The notes below the pieces were generated by a model. It was not told the origin of the DNA. It searched no databases and saw nothing but the letters and a program-made list of their open reading frames with translations. The position numbers were made by a program, and so were the translations under genes. A stretch of 64,000 bases of DNA, from assembly GCF_009914755.1 (NCBI RefSeq), contig NC_060926.1; one strand, 5' to 3'. Each line of letters opens with the position of its first letter. The first letter of the stretch is position 1. The stretch comes from the human T2T-CHM13v2.0 reference genome, Homo sapiens. This document shows positions 44,955 through 51,650 of this stretch, in pieces.

Positions 44955-45252
44955 TTTTATTTATTTATTTTTGAGGCAATGTCTTTTTCTGTCATTGAGG
45001 CTGGAGTGCAGTAGCACCATCATGGCTCACTGCAGCCTTGAACTCCTGGGCTCAAGCAATCCTCCTGCCTCAGCCTTCTGAGTAGCTGAGACTACAGGTG
45101 TGCACCCAACTAATTAAATTTTTTTCTTTTTTTGTAGATACAAGGTCTCGCTGTTCTACCTAGGCTGTTCTAGAACTCCTAATGTCAAGCTATCCTCCTG
45201 CCTCGGCCTCCCATGCTGTTGGGATTACAGGTGAGAACCACCGTCCTTGGTC
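44955..45252 (-). mobile_element. AluJ hosting an exonised segment
   Basis: Antisense Alu consensus. Confidence 0.88.
45138..45230 (+). CDS. ACYP2: Alu-derived internal exon (93 nt) of the long ACYP2 isoform
   Basis: tttgtag|ATAC...TTACAG|gtgaga; open frame (phase 2) [30 protein letters not shown] joins in frame with 51427. Size and spacing match my recollection of the ACYP2 long-isoform exons. Confidence 0.6.
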
Positions 45253-45279
45253 ACAAATTCCTTTAAAGAGCTGTGCAAT

Positions 45280-46846
45280 GGCTCTCACAGCCATTGCAGT
45301 ACCCTGAACTCCATAGAGACAGCACTGGGCAAGTGAGAACCAGACAGGCATTGGGCGACTCTGCCTCACTGAGGAAAAATAACTAAAAATGGGCAAAGGA
45401 GATCCTAAGAAGCTGAGAGGCAAAATGTCATCATATGCATTTTTTGTGCAAACTTGTCAGGAAGAGCATAAGAAGCAGCAGCCAGATGCTTCAGTCAACT
45501 TCTCAGAGTTTTTAAGAAGTGCTCAGAGAGGTGGAAGACCATGTCTGCTAAAGAGAAAAGTGAAGACATGGCAAATGTAGAGAAGGCCCATTATGAAAGA
45601 GAAATGAAAATCTATATCCCTCCTAAAGGGGTGACAAAAAAGAAGTCTGAGGATCCCAGTGCACCCAAGAGGACTCCTTTGGGCTTTTTTTCTGTTCTGT
45701 TCTGAGAATCGCCCAAAAATAAAAGGAGATCATCTTGGCCTGTCCATTGGTGATGTTGTGAAGAAACTAGGAGAGATGTGGAATGACACTGCTGCAGGTG
45801 ACAAGCAGCCTTATGAAAAGAAGGCTGCGAAGTTGAAGGAAAAATATGAAAGGATATTGCTGCATATTGAGCTAAAGGAAAGCCTGATGCAGCAAAAAAA
45901 GGAATCATCAAGGCTGAAAAAAGCAAGAAAAAGAAGGAAGAGTGCCAGGCTCAGTGGCTCACACCTGTAATCCCGGCGCTTTGGGAGGCCGAGGCAGGAA
46001 AATCACCTGAGGTCAGGAGTTTGAGACCAGCCTGGCCAACATGGCAAAACCCTGCCTTTACTAAAAAAATACAAAAATTAGCTGGGCGTGGTAATGCATT
46101 CCTGTAATCCCAGCTACTCGGGAAGCTGAGGCATGAGAATCACTTGAATCCAGGAGGCAGAGGTTGCAATGAGCCAAGATCGCACCATTGCACTGGAGCC
46201 TGGGCGACAGAGCAAGACTCTGTCTCAATAAATAAATAAATAAATAAATAAATAAATAAATAAATAAATAGAGGGAAGAGGAGGAAGATGAAGAGGATGA
46301 GGAGAAGGAGGAGGATGAAGATGAAGAAGATGATGATGCTGAATAAGTTTGTTTTAGTGCAGTTTTTTTTCTTGTCTATAAAGCATTTAAGCCCCTTGTA
46401 CACAACTCATTCCTTTCAAAGAAAAACAATTGAAATGTAAGTCTGTGTAAGATTTATTTTTAAACTATACCGTGTCATTTTTTGTATGGTAAACACACTA
46501 CTGAACATGTCTTTAGATAACCCTGTCCTGGTGGCATTTTCAATAGCCACTATTGAAAATGTGGCTAAAACTGTACTTTGTCTGGTACAGTATGGGGGTT
46601 GTAAATTGGCATGGAAATTTAAAGCAGGTTCTCCTTGGCGCACAGCACAAATTATATATAAGTTATATATGGGAATTGTAATTTTTCATCTTCAGTTGTC
46701 TCTGTTGCAGCTTATAAGAAACAATTGCTCTGTTAACGTAATATTACACTGTAATTGCAAAAAAAAGTCGCAGCTGTTCTGTTGACAGTCTGAATGCTTT
46801 TAAGTAAATACAATTTTAAAAATGAGTATTGTCCTTAAACAAAAAA
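45280..46846 (+). pseudogene. HMGB1P31: HMGB1 processed pseudogene (probably HMGB1P31) with an AluS in the acidic-tail region (45943-46270)
   Basis: [27 protein letters not shown] from 45389; box [31 protein letters not shown]; frameshifts; UTRs; A tail; exact TSD aaagagctgtgcaat (45265-45279, 46847-46861). The P31 number is recalled, not verified. Confidence 0.95.
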
Positions 46847-47499
46847 AAAGAGCTGTGCAATACTCTATCTGCCACCAGAGGACTTCACTTACATCTGTGC
46901 CACCTTCAAGAAAGGCAATAGATTTCTGAGGTTTCCAATTGAAAATGGCTGGAAGGGCTCTGTTAGAAAAATCAGTCATTGGGAAGTTGATGGAAGTAGG
47001 TGGCCCATGAGGACAAGATACACTCTAGTGAACAGGAAAGAAAGCAACTAACTGGGGAGGTCTGATTGTATGGAGTGCTTTCCCCAGAGGGAGAATGTGC
47101 CAGTTATCACTTTATTGCCTCTCAGCTCCCTTCACTGACTCATCTATTAAAACATATCTGGGCCCTGTAATTAGTTTTTCCTTTTACTAGCTGGCACAAT
47201 GTTTCATCAGTAGAGGGTGCTGGAGAGAGGCATTGAAGAAAAAAGGTGTTTTCCTCCCTGGTCCTGATGGCTTGTTGGCTGGACCCCTGAAGAGCATGTT
47301 TTTAACTTCACTGTTGGCTCAGTATAAGTGCCTACAGGGCATTGCTTTTGCTGTGTGCCTTCTTCAGCTCTTTTCTTGACTGGCAGAGTGCGGTTAGGAG
47401 ACCCGGACAGCATGGCTTTCACCCTGTCCTATATTGCTGCTCTGCATAGGCATGCTGGGGGCCCCATAGGGCTGGCTGTCTAGTGAACTGAATGCCCAG

Positions 47500-48068
47500 C
47501 CTTCATCCACTAGCTCAGACTACTCTAGCCCAAGTCATATGCAGAGGTGCACTCGGTTGCTGTGGAAGGCCTCCCCAGCTCTCAGTCCCACCAGCACCCT
47601 CAGTGGCAGCCCAACTCACTCTGCACACCCACCCATCAAGTTCAGCTTTCCTGGGTCCTAGATATCCTGACACAGACACTGTGTGTTCCAGGCCTCACAC
47701 CTACAGTGGCTCTGTGACTCTCTCTGTACCAGTCCCCCTGTGTACACCCAGCTTGCCCACCGGCTCTGACTTGCCTGCCCCAAAGGGTTACTTCTTTCCT
47801 GGCAACTCTTAGCCATCTCTGGGCTGTGCAACTTAGGAACTCCTCTGCCACCAAGTAGATTGTGACCACACCTTCTTCAATGAGCTCTGATCCCTTCCTC
47901 CAAGTTTGTCCTTTTTTGGAACTTTCCCTCAGTCCTACAGCAGTGTTTAGAGCTTTCATTCTATCTTTAGAGTCACTCTCCTATCTTTCTTTACTCAGTA
48001 ATTCTTTATATTAAACATCCCTGTTTAAATTACTGTGTGGTTTTTGCTCTTGATTAGACCCTAACTAA
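47500..48068 (+). mobile_element. Ancient ERVL-class LTR (LTR40/33-like)
   Basis: 3' end ttatattaaacatccctgtttaaattactgtgtggttt...gattagaccctaactaat. Confidence 0.5.
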
Positions 48069-49513: not shown

Positions 49514-50299
49514 GTTTTTCTTAAATGAGATAATTTCTTCCTTTTTTCCTAAATCATGTGTCAGGAATAATAAAATTATTATTTATAGTAATTCCATTAC
49601 TCACAGTAATAATTGTGATAATAATGTAAACAATTTGTATTTATATAGCATTCTATTATTCACAAAGCATTTTGACATATATTGTCCAATTTCATTCCTA
49701 CAAAAATCCTTGTGAGGTAGATAGAAAAAGTATTATTTTCCTATTTTACAAATAGAAAATAGAGGCTCAGAGAAGTTAATCGAATTTCTTAATAGCATAT
49801 ATTTAGGACGTGATGGTGGAGATTGAATTTCATCCTAAATCTAACTCTAAAACCTGTCCTATGACACCCTCCATATACTGCATAATAGCCAAAGACATAT
49901 TAAGCCTATCTGCTGTTCAACAAATTACATGCACCCAGAGGTCCAATTTGGCAGAGAGAACAATGCATCTAAGTGTTCAGTTATGAATTGAATTCTGAAG
50001 TTAGAGAAATATTTGACACATATTGAAATTGTGTATTCTGTAACATGTGTTGTGATAAACACAGAGTCTAATAATGTGTAGTACTGTCAGATATAGTACC
50101 TCCATAGACATACTGTAATATAGTAGTACTGTCAGATATAGTACCCCCATAGGCATACTGTAAATAGATTTCTTTCACTCCATGGAAACCTAAGCTCAGA
50201 GAAGTTAAATAAATTATTTGCACCAGGCTCCTATGATTTCAAAATGCTGCTTTTTCTGGATTAATGTAGTTAATTTCAAAAAAGATGTCCATATAGAAA

Positions 50300-51028
50300 A
50301 GGTTCTCCAGGGAGTAGAGAAAAAGAGCTGGTTGTCTTCCACCAGCTTGAGGAGGATTCATGAGTGGAACCAGGCACTGGTGGAACTAATCAGGGTGTCA
50401 CCCAAGCAGGACACCCTAAGTTTATCTGCTTATCTACTGAACTGATAGGCAGCAAAGAAGATATCACCATTCACGGCCTGGTGACATGGGCAGTTTCTGA
50501 CATATTTGCCCATCGTCCAGGATACAATTCAAATAAAATCATACGTTCTTTCCACAGGTTGTCAACATCCCTTGACTGATTTAGGTTTGATCATATCCAT
50601 TGGCAAGGGCACATGCTCACTGAGTTTAACAGAAGCATAATACCCTGTACTGCTTTTATTTCCATTTCTTTTTTAAAGATATTTTTGCTCAGAATGTGCA
50701 GTTGAATTCTAGATGGTAAAATAAGTATCAAATGGAACCTCTTTGTATTCTTTAAATGAATGATATCTTTCTTTGCATTTATAATGATGTATATTTTCAA
50801 TCATGACACATTCTGGATTTTCTAAGATAGTTCTGTTTTCAAATTATTTATTTTTCCCATGGAAGGGCTTATCTTGGTCCAGATTTTTTATTCAGAAAAT
50901 AGTAACTATATTGCATGTTGTGTATGTCATCTGTATTTTATTTGCCATTTGTCACCTGTACTTTAATAGCTTTCTACTATATTACCTGTTGATTCCTATA
51001 TTAAGAATATAATGAATTTTCTGTAAAT
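50300..51028 (-). pseudogene. Large fossil exon of the minus-strand pseudogene
   Basis: Strong acceptor ttttttctgattttag at 51029-51030 closes a 336-nt GT-AG intron; decayed frame ENRTILENPECVMIENIHHYKCKERYHSFKEYKEVPFDTYFT...; 3' end uncertain. Confidence 0.4.
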
Positions 51029-51364
51029 CTAAAATCAGAAAAAAATACTTTTAAAAAGAACTTAAAGGAACTTAATTATTTGTGTAAGACAAATGCTTTT
51101 TATTTCATTTATTCATTATATATGTTTAATATATCTAACTGATATGACAAATAGTTTATCAATATCTTGCTCACACCAAAACATTAATTCCATTTGCAAA
51201 ACTATGTGAAAATTATAGCTATTATCCCAATAATTCAGATAAAATAGCTTTCTAGTGTGTTTTCCCTTTCAATATTTGGGTTGATAGGGAAGGGATATGA
51301 ATTTTGACTTGAACCATAAATTAGATTGTCTAGATTGACTGATTTCATGACATAACTATGCAAC

Positions 51365-51650
51365 CTGCCCTTGGGGTTTCTTGGTGATGAACTTTTTCTT
51401 ACTGTTCTCACATATTTTGTTTCCAGCTATAAATTCATACAATTATCAGAGTTTGGTTTTGGTCAAGTCATAATTGTGAGTGAAGAACCATGGAAGGAGA
51501 ACATTTCTTGCTCATCAACTACTTTCATAAAATCAACAATTTGCTTAAGTAAGTCTTCAAAATAAATACTGATTTTAATGAATATCTACCTTTTACAGTT
51601 CATCAGAACATTTTGGTATATAAAATTAGCCTCAGGATGGCAGAACTTAT
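51365..51650 (-). pseudogene. Fossil exon (286 nt) of the minus-strand pseudogene
   Basis: tctctaacag| ... CAG|gttgca; KFCHPEANFIYQNVLMNCKR*IFIKISIYFEDLLKQIVDFMKVVDEQEMFSF... (3 stops in about 95 codons). Confidence 0.5.
51427..51548 (+). CDS. ACYP2: Internal exon (122 nt) of the long ACYP2 isoform
   Basis: ttttgtttccag|CTAT...TTAA|gtaagt; open frame SYKFIQLSEFGFGQVIIVSEEPWKENISCSSTTFIKSTICL, in phase with the 93-nt exon; identity recalled. Confidence 0.65.

What the first reader, a model, noticed from the sequence alone, without database searches (positions are those of the whole stretch)
45138..51554. ACYP2 long-isoform N-terminal extension assembled from an Alu and the antisense strand of a dead exon
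Seen: two plus-strand exons with canonical splice sites join into a stop-free frame of about 71 codons. The first is the antisense arm of an AluJ. The second lies entirely inside the minus-strand fossil exon 51365-51650, and its codons are the exact antisense register of the fossil frame. Recollection: these sizes match annotated exons of a long ACYP2 transcript. Inference: either a primate de novo coding extension recycling a lost gene in antisense, or an annotation-level ORF whose apparent conservation really belongs to the opposite-strand fossil.
Basis: partly seen in the sequence, partly recalled or inferred. Interest (0 to 1): 0.7.

Follow-up and report, generated by a model that had tools for sequence, protein, structure and literature searches.

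The report
Transposon-built alternative ACYP2 upstream exons
Two annotated alternative ACYP2 exons, one cut from an old Alu and one from unique DNA, share an open reading frame that drifts like neutral sequence, and no dead gene was found on the opposite strand.

Summary
Both plus-strand exons are real. They are 45138-45230 and 51427-51548, with canonical splice sites, and joined they give a stop-free frame of 71 codons with no ATG. Exon 1 is the antisense left arm of an old, J-like Alu. Database gene models for human, chimpanzee, gorilla and two colobine genera read exactly this frame.

It is not an extension. The window lies upstream of the normal ACYP2 start exon (about 109.9 kb). The long form replaces the first ~20 residues, the central beta-1 strand and part of the phosphate cradle, with 92 unrelated residues. 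Its ATG lies in a solo LTR outside the window.

The 71 codons change at the neutral rate: 1, 3 and 9 differences against 1.8, 2.4 and 9.2 expected. The enzyme domain shows 2 of 79. Another model reads exon 2 in a different frame.

The minus-strand "fossil exon" is not supported. All three frames carry stops (8, 12, 3). The exact antisense register is the 12-stop frame. No protein family, solved structure or genomic paralogue matches.

Verdict: an ordinary, already annotated Alu/LTR exonization giving an annotation-level ORF. Low interest.

The parts
44960..45255 (-). Full-length, old (J-like) Alu lying antisense to ACYP2. Right arm about 44971-45110, T-rich linker, left arm about 45135-45251.
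   Evidence: Rfam RF00017 minus-strand matches. 70-75% identity to other Alus of the window. Alignment A2.
45118..45137 (+). Polypyrimidine tract plus AG acceptor of exon 1. It is the antisense of the Alu's A-rich linker, and the AG is already present in the other Alu copies aligned.
45138..45230 (+). Alu-derived cassette exon of 93 nt (31 codons, phase 2 to phase 2, so skipping it keeps the frame). Read as ..[30 protein letters not shown] in the database models. Its upstream partner lies OUTSIDE the window: the ATG exon at window -32035 to -31974, whose ATG and first 18 codons sit in a 464-nt solo LTR at -32445 to -31982.
   Evidence: hub annotation
45231..45236 (+). Donor GTGAGA inside the Alu left arm. 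Three of the five other left-arm copies aligned have GC at this place (one GG, one CA), so the GT is a change in this copy.
51400..51426 (+). Polypyrimidine tract and AG acceptor of exon 2.
51427..51548 (+). Exon 2, 122 nt of unique (single-copy) sequence. In the long models it is read from 51428 as YKFIQLSEFGFGQVIIVSEEPWKENISCSSTTFIKSTICL. Its last base plus GT of the 17-nt ACYP2 microexon makes Ser. That microexon lies OUTSIDE the window at 129658-129674. The normal first coding exon, which the long form skips, lies at 109906-109963.
51549..51554 (+). Donor GTAAGT of exon 2.
51490..51548 (+). Internal ATG of exon 2 in a different frame (MEGEHFLLINYFHKINNLL.). The unnamed database model P0012 uses it as its start.
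51365..51650 (-). No coding signal was found, so it is listed only as tested and rejected.

Best explanation
These are two real, already annotated alternative 5' exons of long ACYP2 transcripts.

Route of the transcript, by the annotated gene span:
- It starts about 144.6 kb upstream of the normal coding start, in the CpG island shared head-to-head with PSME4.
- It takes its ATG from a solo LTR at about -32 kb.
- It splices to the exonized antisense left arm of an old Alu (45138-45230), then to a unique-sequence exon (51427-51548).
- It skips the normal first coding exon and rejoins ACYP2 at its 17-nt microexon.

How the exons arose. The Alu exon works as Alu exons usually do. The antisense A-rich linker supplies the polypyrimidine tract and a pre-existing AG, and a change in this copy made a CAG|GTGAGA donor. 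Exon 2's 122 nt shift the phase from 2 to 1, so the frame happens to run into the enzyme frame.

The product. The predicted 172-aa-type protein is not an extended acylphosphatase. Its first ~20 residues (the central beta-1 strand and two of the six phosphate-cradle residues) are replaced by 92 residues of transposon and intron origin.

Selection. The 71 window-encoded codons evolve at the neutral rate. The ORF is best read as a young, unconstrained, annotation-level frame whose product, if made, is probably not a working enzyme.

Shown: exons, splice sites, frame, Alu and LTR origin, replacement of the N-terminus, neutral-like divergence, absence of a minus-strand gene signal.
Inferred: low functional importance, loss of catalytic competence, promoter usage.
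For: - Splice sites and frame.
- Alu orientation and arm. Age. Splice-site origin.
- Six database proteins carry exon 2 in this frame, all catarrhine primates; 6 of 11 candidates passed (sequences).
- Exon map by tblastn: ATG exon at -32035, Alu exon, exon 2. Microexon at 129658-129674. Next exon starts in phase 0. Normal first coding exon at 109906-109963.
- The long forms match Pfam PF00708 only from profile position 12 of 85 (3 of 3 ACYP2-joined models). They match the solved chain 1aps_A only at residues 19-98.
- The alignment shows ..TFIKSTICLS in place of ..SVDYEVFGRVQG.
- The acylphosphatase sheet order is 4-1-3-2-5, with a six-residue phosphate cradle ending at the key Arg (PMC8147672, passages read).
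- Divergence in the 71 codons: Pan 1, Gorilla 3, Rhinopithecus 9 of 71, Semnopithecus 8 of 69. Neutral simulation gives 1.8, 2.4 and 9.2. The enzyme part shows 2 of 79 between Gorilla and Rhinopithecus.
- 53% of simulated neutral copies stay open at Old World monkey distance.
- P0012 reads exon 2 from another ATG and frame.
- P0001 (human, Celera-era model) joins the same exons to a different last exon at 74130-74255, without ACYP2.
- The ATG lies in a dispersed 464-nt repeat: 2542 first-look candidates, 40 of 40 scored at 91-94% identity. It has TG..CA ends and a 5-bp flanking repeat, and one of three copies inspected is followed by a primer-binding-site-like TGGTGCC...
- The gene start lies in a CpG island, GC 0.73-0.78, CpG o/e 0.9.
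- The N-terminal 92 aa have no Pfam family, and the best Atlas look-alike scores 0.80, at the tool's stated noise level.
Against: - No expression, junction-read, Ribo-seq or peptide data could be consulted. Whether and where these exons are used, and whether the ORF is translated, is untested here.
- The frame is open in every primate model recovered. An open frame in the pre-set register has a prior of only about 0.03. That is compatible with some selection, although gene-model pipelines pick open frames.
- The neutral test used proteins only, three recalled genome-wide divergences (1.2, 1.6, 6.5%) and 71 codons. It cannot exclude weak constraint.
- Catalytic Arg and Asn and four of six cradle residues are retained. 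The segment ..TFIKSTICL could in principle stand in for beta-1.
- I could not see the RefSeq CDS features of the five non-selected human transcripts. The ACYP2-joined long forms I saw are named for Pan, Gorilla and Rhinopithecus.
Confidence: 0.75

Rival explanations
1. The long form is a functional, catarrhine-specific proteoform. The transposon-derived N-terminus has been recruited, for example for new localisation or partners, or as a dominant-negative or regulatory version of ACYP2.
For: - The frame is open in all 6 primate models and runs on to the normal stop codon, so it carries no premature stop.
- The ATG is the first one in at least the first 262 nt of the transcript region examined, and no ATG lies between the candidate acceptor in the LTR and the start.
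- The Alu exon is a multiple of three (93 nt).
- The catalytic Arg and Asn are kept.
Against: - Divergence is neutral-like in the 71 codons, against strong constraint in the enzyme part.
- Different models use different frames or upstream exons: P0012 and P0004 with an exon at 41625-41681.
- The Rhinopithecus models start ESKKEMRR. That matches the human flank upstream of the LTR (ESRKEM.) and not the LTR itself, so the first 18 codons seem to be absent there.
- The central beta-1 strand is lost.
- The N-terminus has no family or look-alike.
Confidence: 0.1
2. The transcripts matter as RNA or as an act of transcription, and the ORF is irrelevant. Examples are upstream-promoter read-in that modulates the normal ACYP2 promoter, or a PSME4-coupled divergent transcript.
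For: - The gene start is 120 nt from the PSME4 start, in one CpG island (hub table).
- P0001-type transcripts end at 74130-74255 without reaching ACYP2.
- The sequence of the coding stretch is unconstrained.
Against: Nothing here measures expression or any effect on the normal promoter. This rival differs from the best explanation only in assigning a function to the transcription.
Confidence: 0.1
3. Exon 2 sits in antisense inside the dead exon (51365-51650, minus strand) of a gene lost in primates or mammals, and any conservation belongs to that fossil.
For: - AG and GT dinucleotides flank 51365-51650 on the minus strand.
- One minus frame has only 3 stops in 94 codons.
- There is a sub-threshold Pfam RAWUL match in another minus frame: E 0.012, 16.4 bits against a cut-off of 33.5.
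- An unnamed, more distant record (P0010, 67% identity over 39 residues) shows that the DNA itself is older than the human-ape lineage.
Against: - Three stops is within chance (P = 0.12), and the exact antisense register is the 12-stop frame.
- The RAWUL match vanishes in a 13-kb scan: 0 families on all 3 minus frames, while the HMG-box control on the plus strand is found.
- The locus is not among the 25 candidates or 20 matches of a genome-wide RAWUL search.
- No PCGF-like paralogue turned up in the own genome: best non-self E 0.074, with no DNA similarity.
- A full HMMER search of 1.84 billion proteins with the 3-stop frame gave 4 hits. Three are tiny ORFs (58-73 aa); the two traced lie on contigs of 2820 and 1615 nt. 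All three look like the same locus from other sources. The fourth is a repeat-protein artefact.
- P0010 changes frame relative to human inside exon 2.
- There are no meaningful PDB matches in the three frames: best E 0.011, to a protein named CHD_r1.
- The TLR15 paper, which surveyed the three annotated genes on each side of TLR15, lists GPR75, PSME4 and ACYP2 as those on this side in chicken and calls the block conserved. TLR15 itself, the gene lost in mammals, lies between ERLEC1 and GPR75, beyond PSME4 (PMC9808068, passages read).
Confidence: 0.03

Closest known systems
Alu exonization (antisense Alu cassette exons, e.g. ADAR2 exon 8; Gal-Mark et al. 2008, PMC2330237, abstract and passages read)
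   Same: - The Alu is intronic and antisense.
- The acceptor is the AG behind a T-rich tract that is the antisense of an A-rich Alu segment.
- The donor was made by a change inside the Alu.
- The exon is alternative (absent from the selected transcript) and primate-restricted.
   Different: The exon comes from the LEFT arm. The paper states that most exonizations use the right arm and that the left arm has weaker signals. Here the left arm has a long tract (atttttttctttttttgtag) and a strong CAG|GTGAGA donor. These are the two signals that the paper's authors set out to strengthen when they tested left-arm exonization.
LTR-derived 5' exons and start codons in chimeric host transcripts (HERV-H/LTR7-type; recalled, no paper read here)
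   Same: A sense-oriented solo LTR contributes the 5' coding end (the ATG and 18 codons) of a host-gene isoform.
   Different: By the annotated gene span the transcript starts 2.2 kb further upstream, in the PSME4 CpG island. The LTR would then be an internal exon, not the promoter. The family assignment was not tested against a repeat library.
Canonical muscle-type acylphosphatase (ACYP2; solved relative 1aps_A)
   Same: Residues 93-172 of the long form align to residues 19-98 of 1aps_A (E 3e-47). The alignment includes the R of the VCFR motif and the N of KNTSKG. From the paper's numbering I take these to be the key Arg and Asn.
   Different: The first 18 residues of the solved chain (beta-1 and the start of the phosphate cradle) have no counterpart. 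An unrelated 92 aa stands in their place.
True gene fossils, e.g. the TLR15-like remnant of tuatara in the neighbouring ERLEC1-GPR75 interval (PMC9808068, passages read)
   Same: It lies in the same conserved synteny block, and the idea is the same: a lost gene leaves a decayed exon.
   Different: That remnant is 1462 nt and is recognisably homologous to LRR, TM and TIR parts despite frameshifts. The interval 51365-51650 has no detectable homology to anything.

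Membership tests
Alu exonization | The exon lies inside an Alu that is antisense to the transcript. | tested here: met
   RF00017 minus-strand match at 45135-45251 encloses 45138-45230.
Alu exonization | The 3' splice site is an AG behind the T-rich antisense of an A-rich Alu segment. | tested here: met
   atttttttctttttttgtag|AT. In the alignment, four of the five other left-arm copies also carry the TAG before AGA at this place.
Alu exonization | The 5' splice site was created by mutation within the Alu. 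| tested here: met
   CAG|GTGAGA here. The 5 other left-arm copies aligned have GC (3), GG (1) or CA (1) at the +1/+2 place.
Alu exonization | Alternative use, shown by spliced reads. | not testable with these tools
   Indirect only: the exon is absent from the selected RefSeq transcript and present in 'other transcripts' (hub), and it is present in 6 database gene models.
AluJ subfamily | Diagnostic positions of AluJ against AluS/Y. | tested here: inconclusive
   The copy shares TCTCGCT and TCAAGC states with one other old copy and differs from four S/Y-like copies. Identity to other Alus is 70-75%. Assigning these states to AluJ is recalled, and no repeat library was on hand.
Acylphosphatase (Pfam PF00708), for the long isoform | [quoted passage not shown] | tested here: not met
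   Profile positions 12-85 of 85 only, in 3 of 3 ACYP2-joined long models. Residues 19-98 of 1aps_A only.
Acylphosphatase (Pfam PF00708), for the long isoform | Key Arg (phosphate binding) and Asn (catalytic water) are present. | tested here: met
   The R of VCFR and the N of KNTSKG are identical in the alignment to 1aps_A. I identify them as the key pair from the numbering in PMC8147672.
Acylphosphatase (Pfam PF00708), for the long isoform | An intact six-residue phosphate cradle ending at the key Arg. | tested here: not met
   The long form has L-S-V-C-F-R where canonical forms have Q-G-V-C-F-R. The cradle definition comes from PMC8147672.
Fossil (pseudogenised) exon on the minus strand | A reading frame with fewer stops than chance. 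| tested here: not met
   8, 12 and 3 stops. P(best frame has 3 or fewer) = 0.12 in 2000 shuffles.
Fossil (pseudogenised) exon on the minus strand | Significant homology to a protein or family. | tested here: not met
   - Pfam: only sub-threshold hits, none in the 13-kb scan.
- PDB: none.
- 1.84 billion representatives searched, with the 3-stop frame only: same-locus ORFs and one artefact.
- Own genome: none.
   The exact register is the minus frame starting at 51649, with 12 stops. The 3-stop frame is offset by one base.
Fossil (pseudogenised) exon on the minus strand | A live orthologue at the syntenic place in other vertebrates. | tested here: inconclusive
   No vertebrate genomes were available. 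The paper's survey of the three genes on each side of TLR15 lists GPR75, PSME4 and ACYP2 on this side in chicken (PMC9808068, passages).
Solo LTR donating the start codon | TG...CA ends, a short target-site duplication, AATAAA, and many dispersed copies. | tested here: met
   The element starts TGTCAGG, ends GAGACA, and has ATGAG on both flanks. AATAAA lies 5 nt before the ATG. There are 2542 candidates, with 40 of 40 scored at 91-94%. A PBS-like TGGTGCC follows 1 of 3 copies inspected.
Solo LTR donating the start codon | Membership of the named family LTR7 (HERV-H). | not testable with these tools
   Recalled resemblance only. The one PBS-like motif seen was not matched to a tRNA.
Protein-coding sequence under selection (de novo coding exon) | Purifying selection on the frame. 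| tested here: not met
   1, 3 and 9 differences of 71 against neutral 1.8, 2.4 and 9.2. The enzyme part shows 2 of 79. The test is protein-level only and uses recalled divergences.
Protein-coding sequence under selection (de novo coding exon) | Evidence of translation. | not testable with these tools
   No Ribo-seq or proteomics access.

The most novel reading that the evidence does not exclude
A catarrhine-restricted ACYP2 proteoform, extended at its 5' end in apes by a solo LTR. A patchwork of LTR, antisense Alu and unique intron sequence replaces the central beta-1 strand and part of the phosphate cradle. The proteoform is translated and has acquired a role of its own. It could be a catalytically dead, aggregation-prone or dominant-negative acylphosphatase, or one with new partners or localisation, expressed from the PSME4-shared promoter.
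Probability: 0.07. Interest if true: 0.5.

Novelty: already known. Interest (0 to 1): 0.15.

Why it matters
As it stands it matters little. It is one more case of transposon exonization giving a lineage-specific, unconstrained ORF that annotation pipelines carry as a 'long isoform'.

The useful points are corrective:
- The isoform replaces the enzyme's N-terminus and does not extend it. It should not be assumed to be an active acylphosphatase.
- Its start codon, Alu exon and frame are young and drift neutrally.
- There is no antisense gene fossil here.

If the protein were shown to be made, it would be a tidy example of a protein N-terminus assembled stepwise from an Alu, unique intron DNA and, later, an LTR.

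Tried and rejected
1. RAWUL lead. A Pfam match in one minus frame (E 0.012) was followed up.
   - It was absent from the 13-kb six-frame scan.
   - It was not among the 25 candidates of a genome-wide RAWUL search.
   - A protein search of the own genome with that frame gave only self plus four chance hits (best E 0.074), with no DNA similarity.
   - Rejected as chance.
2. P0009, a 3265-aa hit at E 5.9e-15. It is a many-times-repeated motif matched at about 30% identity each time. Rejected as a repeat artefact.
3. Exon 2 as a piece of an abundant repeat.
   - The own-genome DNA search gave self only, plus two tiny matches on another chromosome.
   - nhmmer against 170 kb gave self only, while the Alu exon as control gave 293 hits.
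   - No repeat origin was found, but very old repeats could escape these searches.
4. TLR15 as the 'lost gene'. A paper naming ACYP2 and PSME4 places TLR15 between ERLEC1 and GPR75, on the far side of PSME4. Not relevant to this interval.
5. Literature on this isoform. Searches for ACYP2+Alu+exon (4 papers, none relevant by their listing), ACYP2+LTR7 (0), ACYP2+HERVH (0) and ACYP2+PSME4+transcript (12, none on the isoform by their listing) found nothing. Supplementary tables of Alu-exon or proteomics papers were not examined and might list it.
6. Structure prediction of the long form with a 53-row alignment (A1). The tool was not accepting jobs, so there is no model and no fold search.
8. Protein Atlas look-alikes of the 92-aa N-terminus scored 0.80 at best, which the tool rates as noise.
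9. The middle exon of P0012 was not found at 80% identity or more anywhere between -35.7 kb and +134 kb of this genome. That record probably comes from another source or carries an Alu absent here.

Full report
**What is in the sequence.** The two plus-strand exons exist as described.
- Exon 1 is 45138-45230 (93 nt). It follows atttttttctttttttgtag and is followed by gtgaga.
- Exon 2 is 51427-51548 (122 nt). It follows ...tttgtttccag and is followed by gtaagt.
- Joined, the 215 nt have one stop-free frame of 71 codons (first full codon at 45139) that contains no ATG. The other frames have 4 and 5 stops.
- This is only mildly unusual. An open frame turned up in 0.04 of 2000 dinucleotide shuffles, 0.088 of 20000 random pairs of window pieces, and 0.03 for a pre-set frame.
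- In genomic DNA the open frames overrun both exon borders, at 45118-45234 and 51356-51565.

**Exon 1 is an exonized Alu.** Rfam's 7SL/Alu model matches the minus strand at 44971-45110 and 45135-45251. The exon is therefore the antisense left arm of a full-length Alu.
- The copy is old: 70-75% identical to other Alus of the window.
- Aligned with six other copies, it shares TCTCGCT and TCAAGC states with one other old copy, where S/Y-like copies differ. I recall these as AluJ states; no repeat library was available.
- The acceptor AG and the T-rich tract are native to the antisense Alu.
- The donor GT stands where three of the five other left arms aligned have GC, one GG and one CA.
- Most Alu exonizations use the right arm, and the left arm normally has weaker signals (PMC2330237, abstract and passages). 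This is a minority, left-arm case of a well-known process.

**Which proteins use the frame.** A search with the exon-2 peptide found 6 proteins among 11 candidates, all catarrhine primates:
- a human Celera-era model (P0001, 134 aa);
- Pan ACYP2 isoform X1 (P0002, 199 aa);
- a Gorilla entry (P0003, 172 aa);
- Semnopithecus (P0004);
- two Rhinopithecus entries (P0005, P0006).

I could not see the CDS features of the five non-selected human RefSeq transcripts.

**The wider gene structure changes the interpretation.** I mapped these proteins on 170 kb fetched around the window.
- The start codon (MLLTQSLFGGLFPRTRETMR..) lies at window -32035.
- The Alu exon and exon 2 follow.
- The frame then enters a 17-nt ACYP2 microexon at 129658-129674. 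The last A of exon 2 plus GT gives Ser, and VCFRM follows.
- It continues into the exon at 132848-132957.
- The normal first coding exon (MSTAQ...RVQ+G) is at 109906-109963, downstream of the window, and the long form skips it.

So the long form is a replacement of the N-terminus, not an extension.
- It matches the Pfam acylphosphatase profile only from position 12 of 85 (3 of 3 ACYP2-joined models).
- It matches the solved chain 1aps_A only at residues 19-98.
- Where normal forms have ..SVDYEVFGRVQG, it has ..TFIKSTICLS.
- In this fold beta-1 is a central strand (sheet order 4-1-3-2-5). The six residues ending at the key Arg form the phosphate cradle (PMC8147672, passages).
- The long form keeps the Arg and the Asn but loses beta-1 and two of the six cradle residues.
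- Structure prediction could not be run.

**The start codon comes from a solo LTR.** The ATG and the next 17 codons lie in a 464-nt element at window -32445 to -31982.
- It has TG...CA ends, ATGAG repeated on both flanks, and AATAAA five bases before the ATG.
- It has at least 2542 first-look candidates in the genome, and 40 of 40 scored copies are 91-94% identical.
- One of three copies inspected is followed by a primer-binding-site-like TGGTGCC...
- I recall the sequence as LTR7-like (HERV-H group); this was not tested.
- The Rhinopithecus models begin ESKKEMRR. That matches the translation of the human flank upstream of the LTR (ESRKEM.) and not the LTR. This suggests the LTR entered an older exon after apes split from Old World monkeys. 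That is an inference from two partial models.
- The annotated gene start (-34671) lies in a CpG island 120 nt from the PSME4 start (hub table).

**No sign of selection on the frame.** Against human, the 71 codons differ as follows:

| Species | Differences | Neutral simulation |
|---|---|---|
| Pan | 1 of 71 | 1.8 |
| Gorilla | 3 of 71 | 2.4 |
| Rhinopithecus | 9 of 71 | 9.2 |
| Semnopithecus | 8 of 69 | not simulated separately (same 6.5% setting) |

- The simulation assumed recalled divergences of 1.2, 1.6 and 6.5%.
- In the simulation, 53% of copies stay open at the monkey distance.
- The enzyme part differs at only 2 of 79 positions between Gorilla and Rhinopithecus.
- Gene models disagree about the region. 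P0012 starts at the ATG at 51490 in another frame of exon 2. P0004 uses another upstream exon, at 41625-41681. P0001 ends in an exon at 74130-74255 without reaching ACYP2.
- The 92-aa N-terminus has no Pfam family and only noise-level Atlas look-alikes.

**The minus-strand 'fossil exon' is not supported.**
- In 51365-51650 the three minus frames carry 8, 12 and 3 stops. Shuffles give 6.6 +/- 2.5 per frame, and a best frame with 3 or fewer stops occurs in 12% of shuffles.
- The exact antisense register of the plus codons is the 12-stop frame. The 3-stop frame is offset by one base.
- Pfam gave only sub-threshold hits on the six frames of 51300-51720: RAWUL at E 0.012 and a phage baseplate domain at E 0.063.
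- Pfam gave nothing on the minus strand of 45000-58000, while the HMG-box pseudogene served as a positive control on the plus strand.
- The RAWUL lead failed a genome-wide search and a paralogue search.
- A full search of 1.84 billion proteins with the 3-stop frame returned four hits. Three are tiny ORFs (58-73 aa); the two traced sit on contigs of 2820 and 1615 nt. All three look like the same locus from other sources. The fourth is a repeat artefact.
- One of those ORFs, P0010 (67% identity), switches frame relative to human inside exon 2. The DNA is thus older than apes, but neither strand's frame is kept.
- PDB searches of all three frames were empty or noise.
- Exon 2 is single-copy.
- The one gene known to be lost from this synteny block in mammals, TLR15, lies beyond PSME4, between ERLEC1 and GPR75 (PMC9808068, passages).

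**Verdict.** It is wrong about the fossil and the register. The thing is an ordinary, already annotated, transposon-assembled alternative 5' end of ACYP2. Its ORF is open but unconstrained, and its product lacks part of the enzyme core. I found nothing in print on it in four searches; supplementary tables were not examined. Expression, translation and strand-specific conservation could not be tested here and remain the decisive checks.

Noticed in passing
window 45262-45940 (+): The HMGB1 retro-pseudogene seems to reach further 5' than the annotated 45514. An HMGB1-like start (MGKGDPKK...) is at 45390, and HMG-box matches begin near 45404, with a frame change between the two boxes. It abuts the Alu that supplies exon 1 and begins within a few tens of bases of the exon's donor.
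   Followed up: partly
outside the window, about 109822-109963 (+) (L014): The normal first ACYP2 exon is open upstream of MSTAQ, with an in-frame ATG 28 codons earlier (MCPLPLAAAAVAAPRAPLRLLNRGLAAA...). Many mammals have 127-aa 'isoform X1' models that use it. This, not the finding, is the widespread N-terminal extension of ACYP2. It is Ala-, Leu- and Arg-rich, like a targeting peptide, but this was not tested.
   Followed up: no
outside the window, 129658-129674 (+) (L016): ACYP2 has a 17-nt microexon (GT GTT TGC TTC AGA ATG) that encodes part of the phosphate cradle. All alternative 5' ends must hit its phase exactly.
   Followed up: yes
outside the window, -32445 to -31982 (+) (L006:255-718): A solo LTR with the 5-bp flanking repeat ATGAG lies inside or next to the ATG exon. 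The Rhinopithecus models read the uninterrupted flank, which suggests an ape-specific insertion that added 18 codons and a new ATG.
   Followed up: partly
window 51490-51548 (+): The unnamed database protein P0012 (122 aa) starts at an ATG inside exon 2 in another frame. It passes through an Alu-like exon that I could not find in this genome stretch, and then joins the ACYP2 microexon.
   Followed up: partly
window 51412-51563 (-): The unnamed record P0010 (64 aa) is a more distant copy of the same DNA: 67% identity over 39 residues in one frame and 55% over 20 residues in another. That implies an indel of about 25 nt relative to human inside exon 2. Its source is unknown.
   Followed up: partly
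window 41625-41681 (+) and outside at -20398 to -20312 (+) and 74130-74255 (+): These are further exons used by single primate or human gene models upstream or downstream of the two exons: the Semnopithecus model, Pan X1 and human P0001 respectively. They show that many alternative, mutually inconsistent models exist across this interval.
   Followed up: partly
window 44582-44632, 46079-46130, 49339-49390, 44996-45052, 46147-46206, 49263-49322: Sub-threshold Rfam matches to mir-1268 and mir-3135 all fall inside Alu copies, and all are below the gathering scores. These families look Alu-derived, and I do not read them as miRNA genes here.
   Followed up: no
window 45000-45230 (+), translated: Weak Pfam DUF5559 matches (E 0.015 and 0.15, below the cut-off) fall on translations of the antisense Alu. 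That Pfam family may itself be built on Alu-derived ORFs.
   Followed up: no
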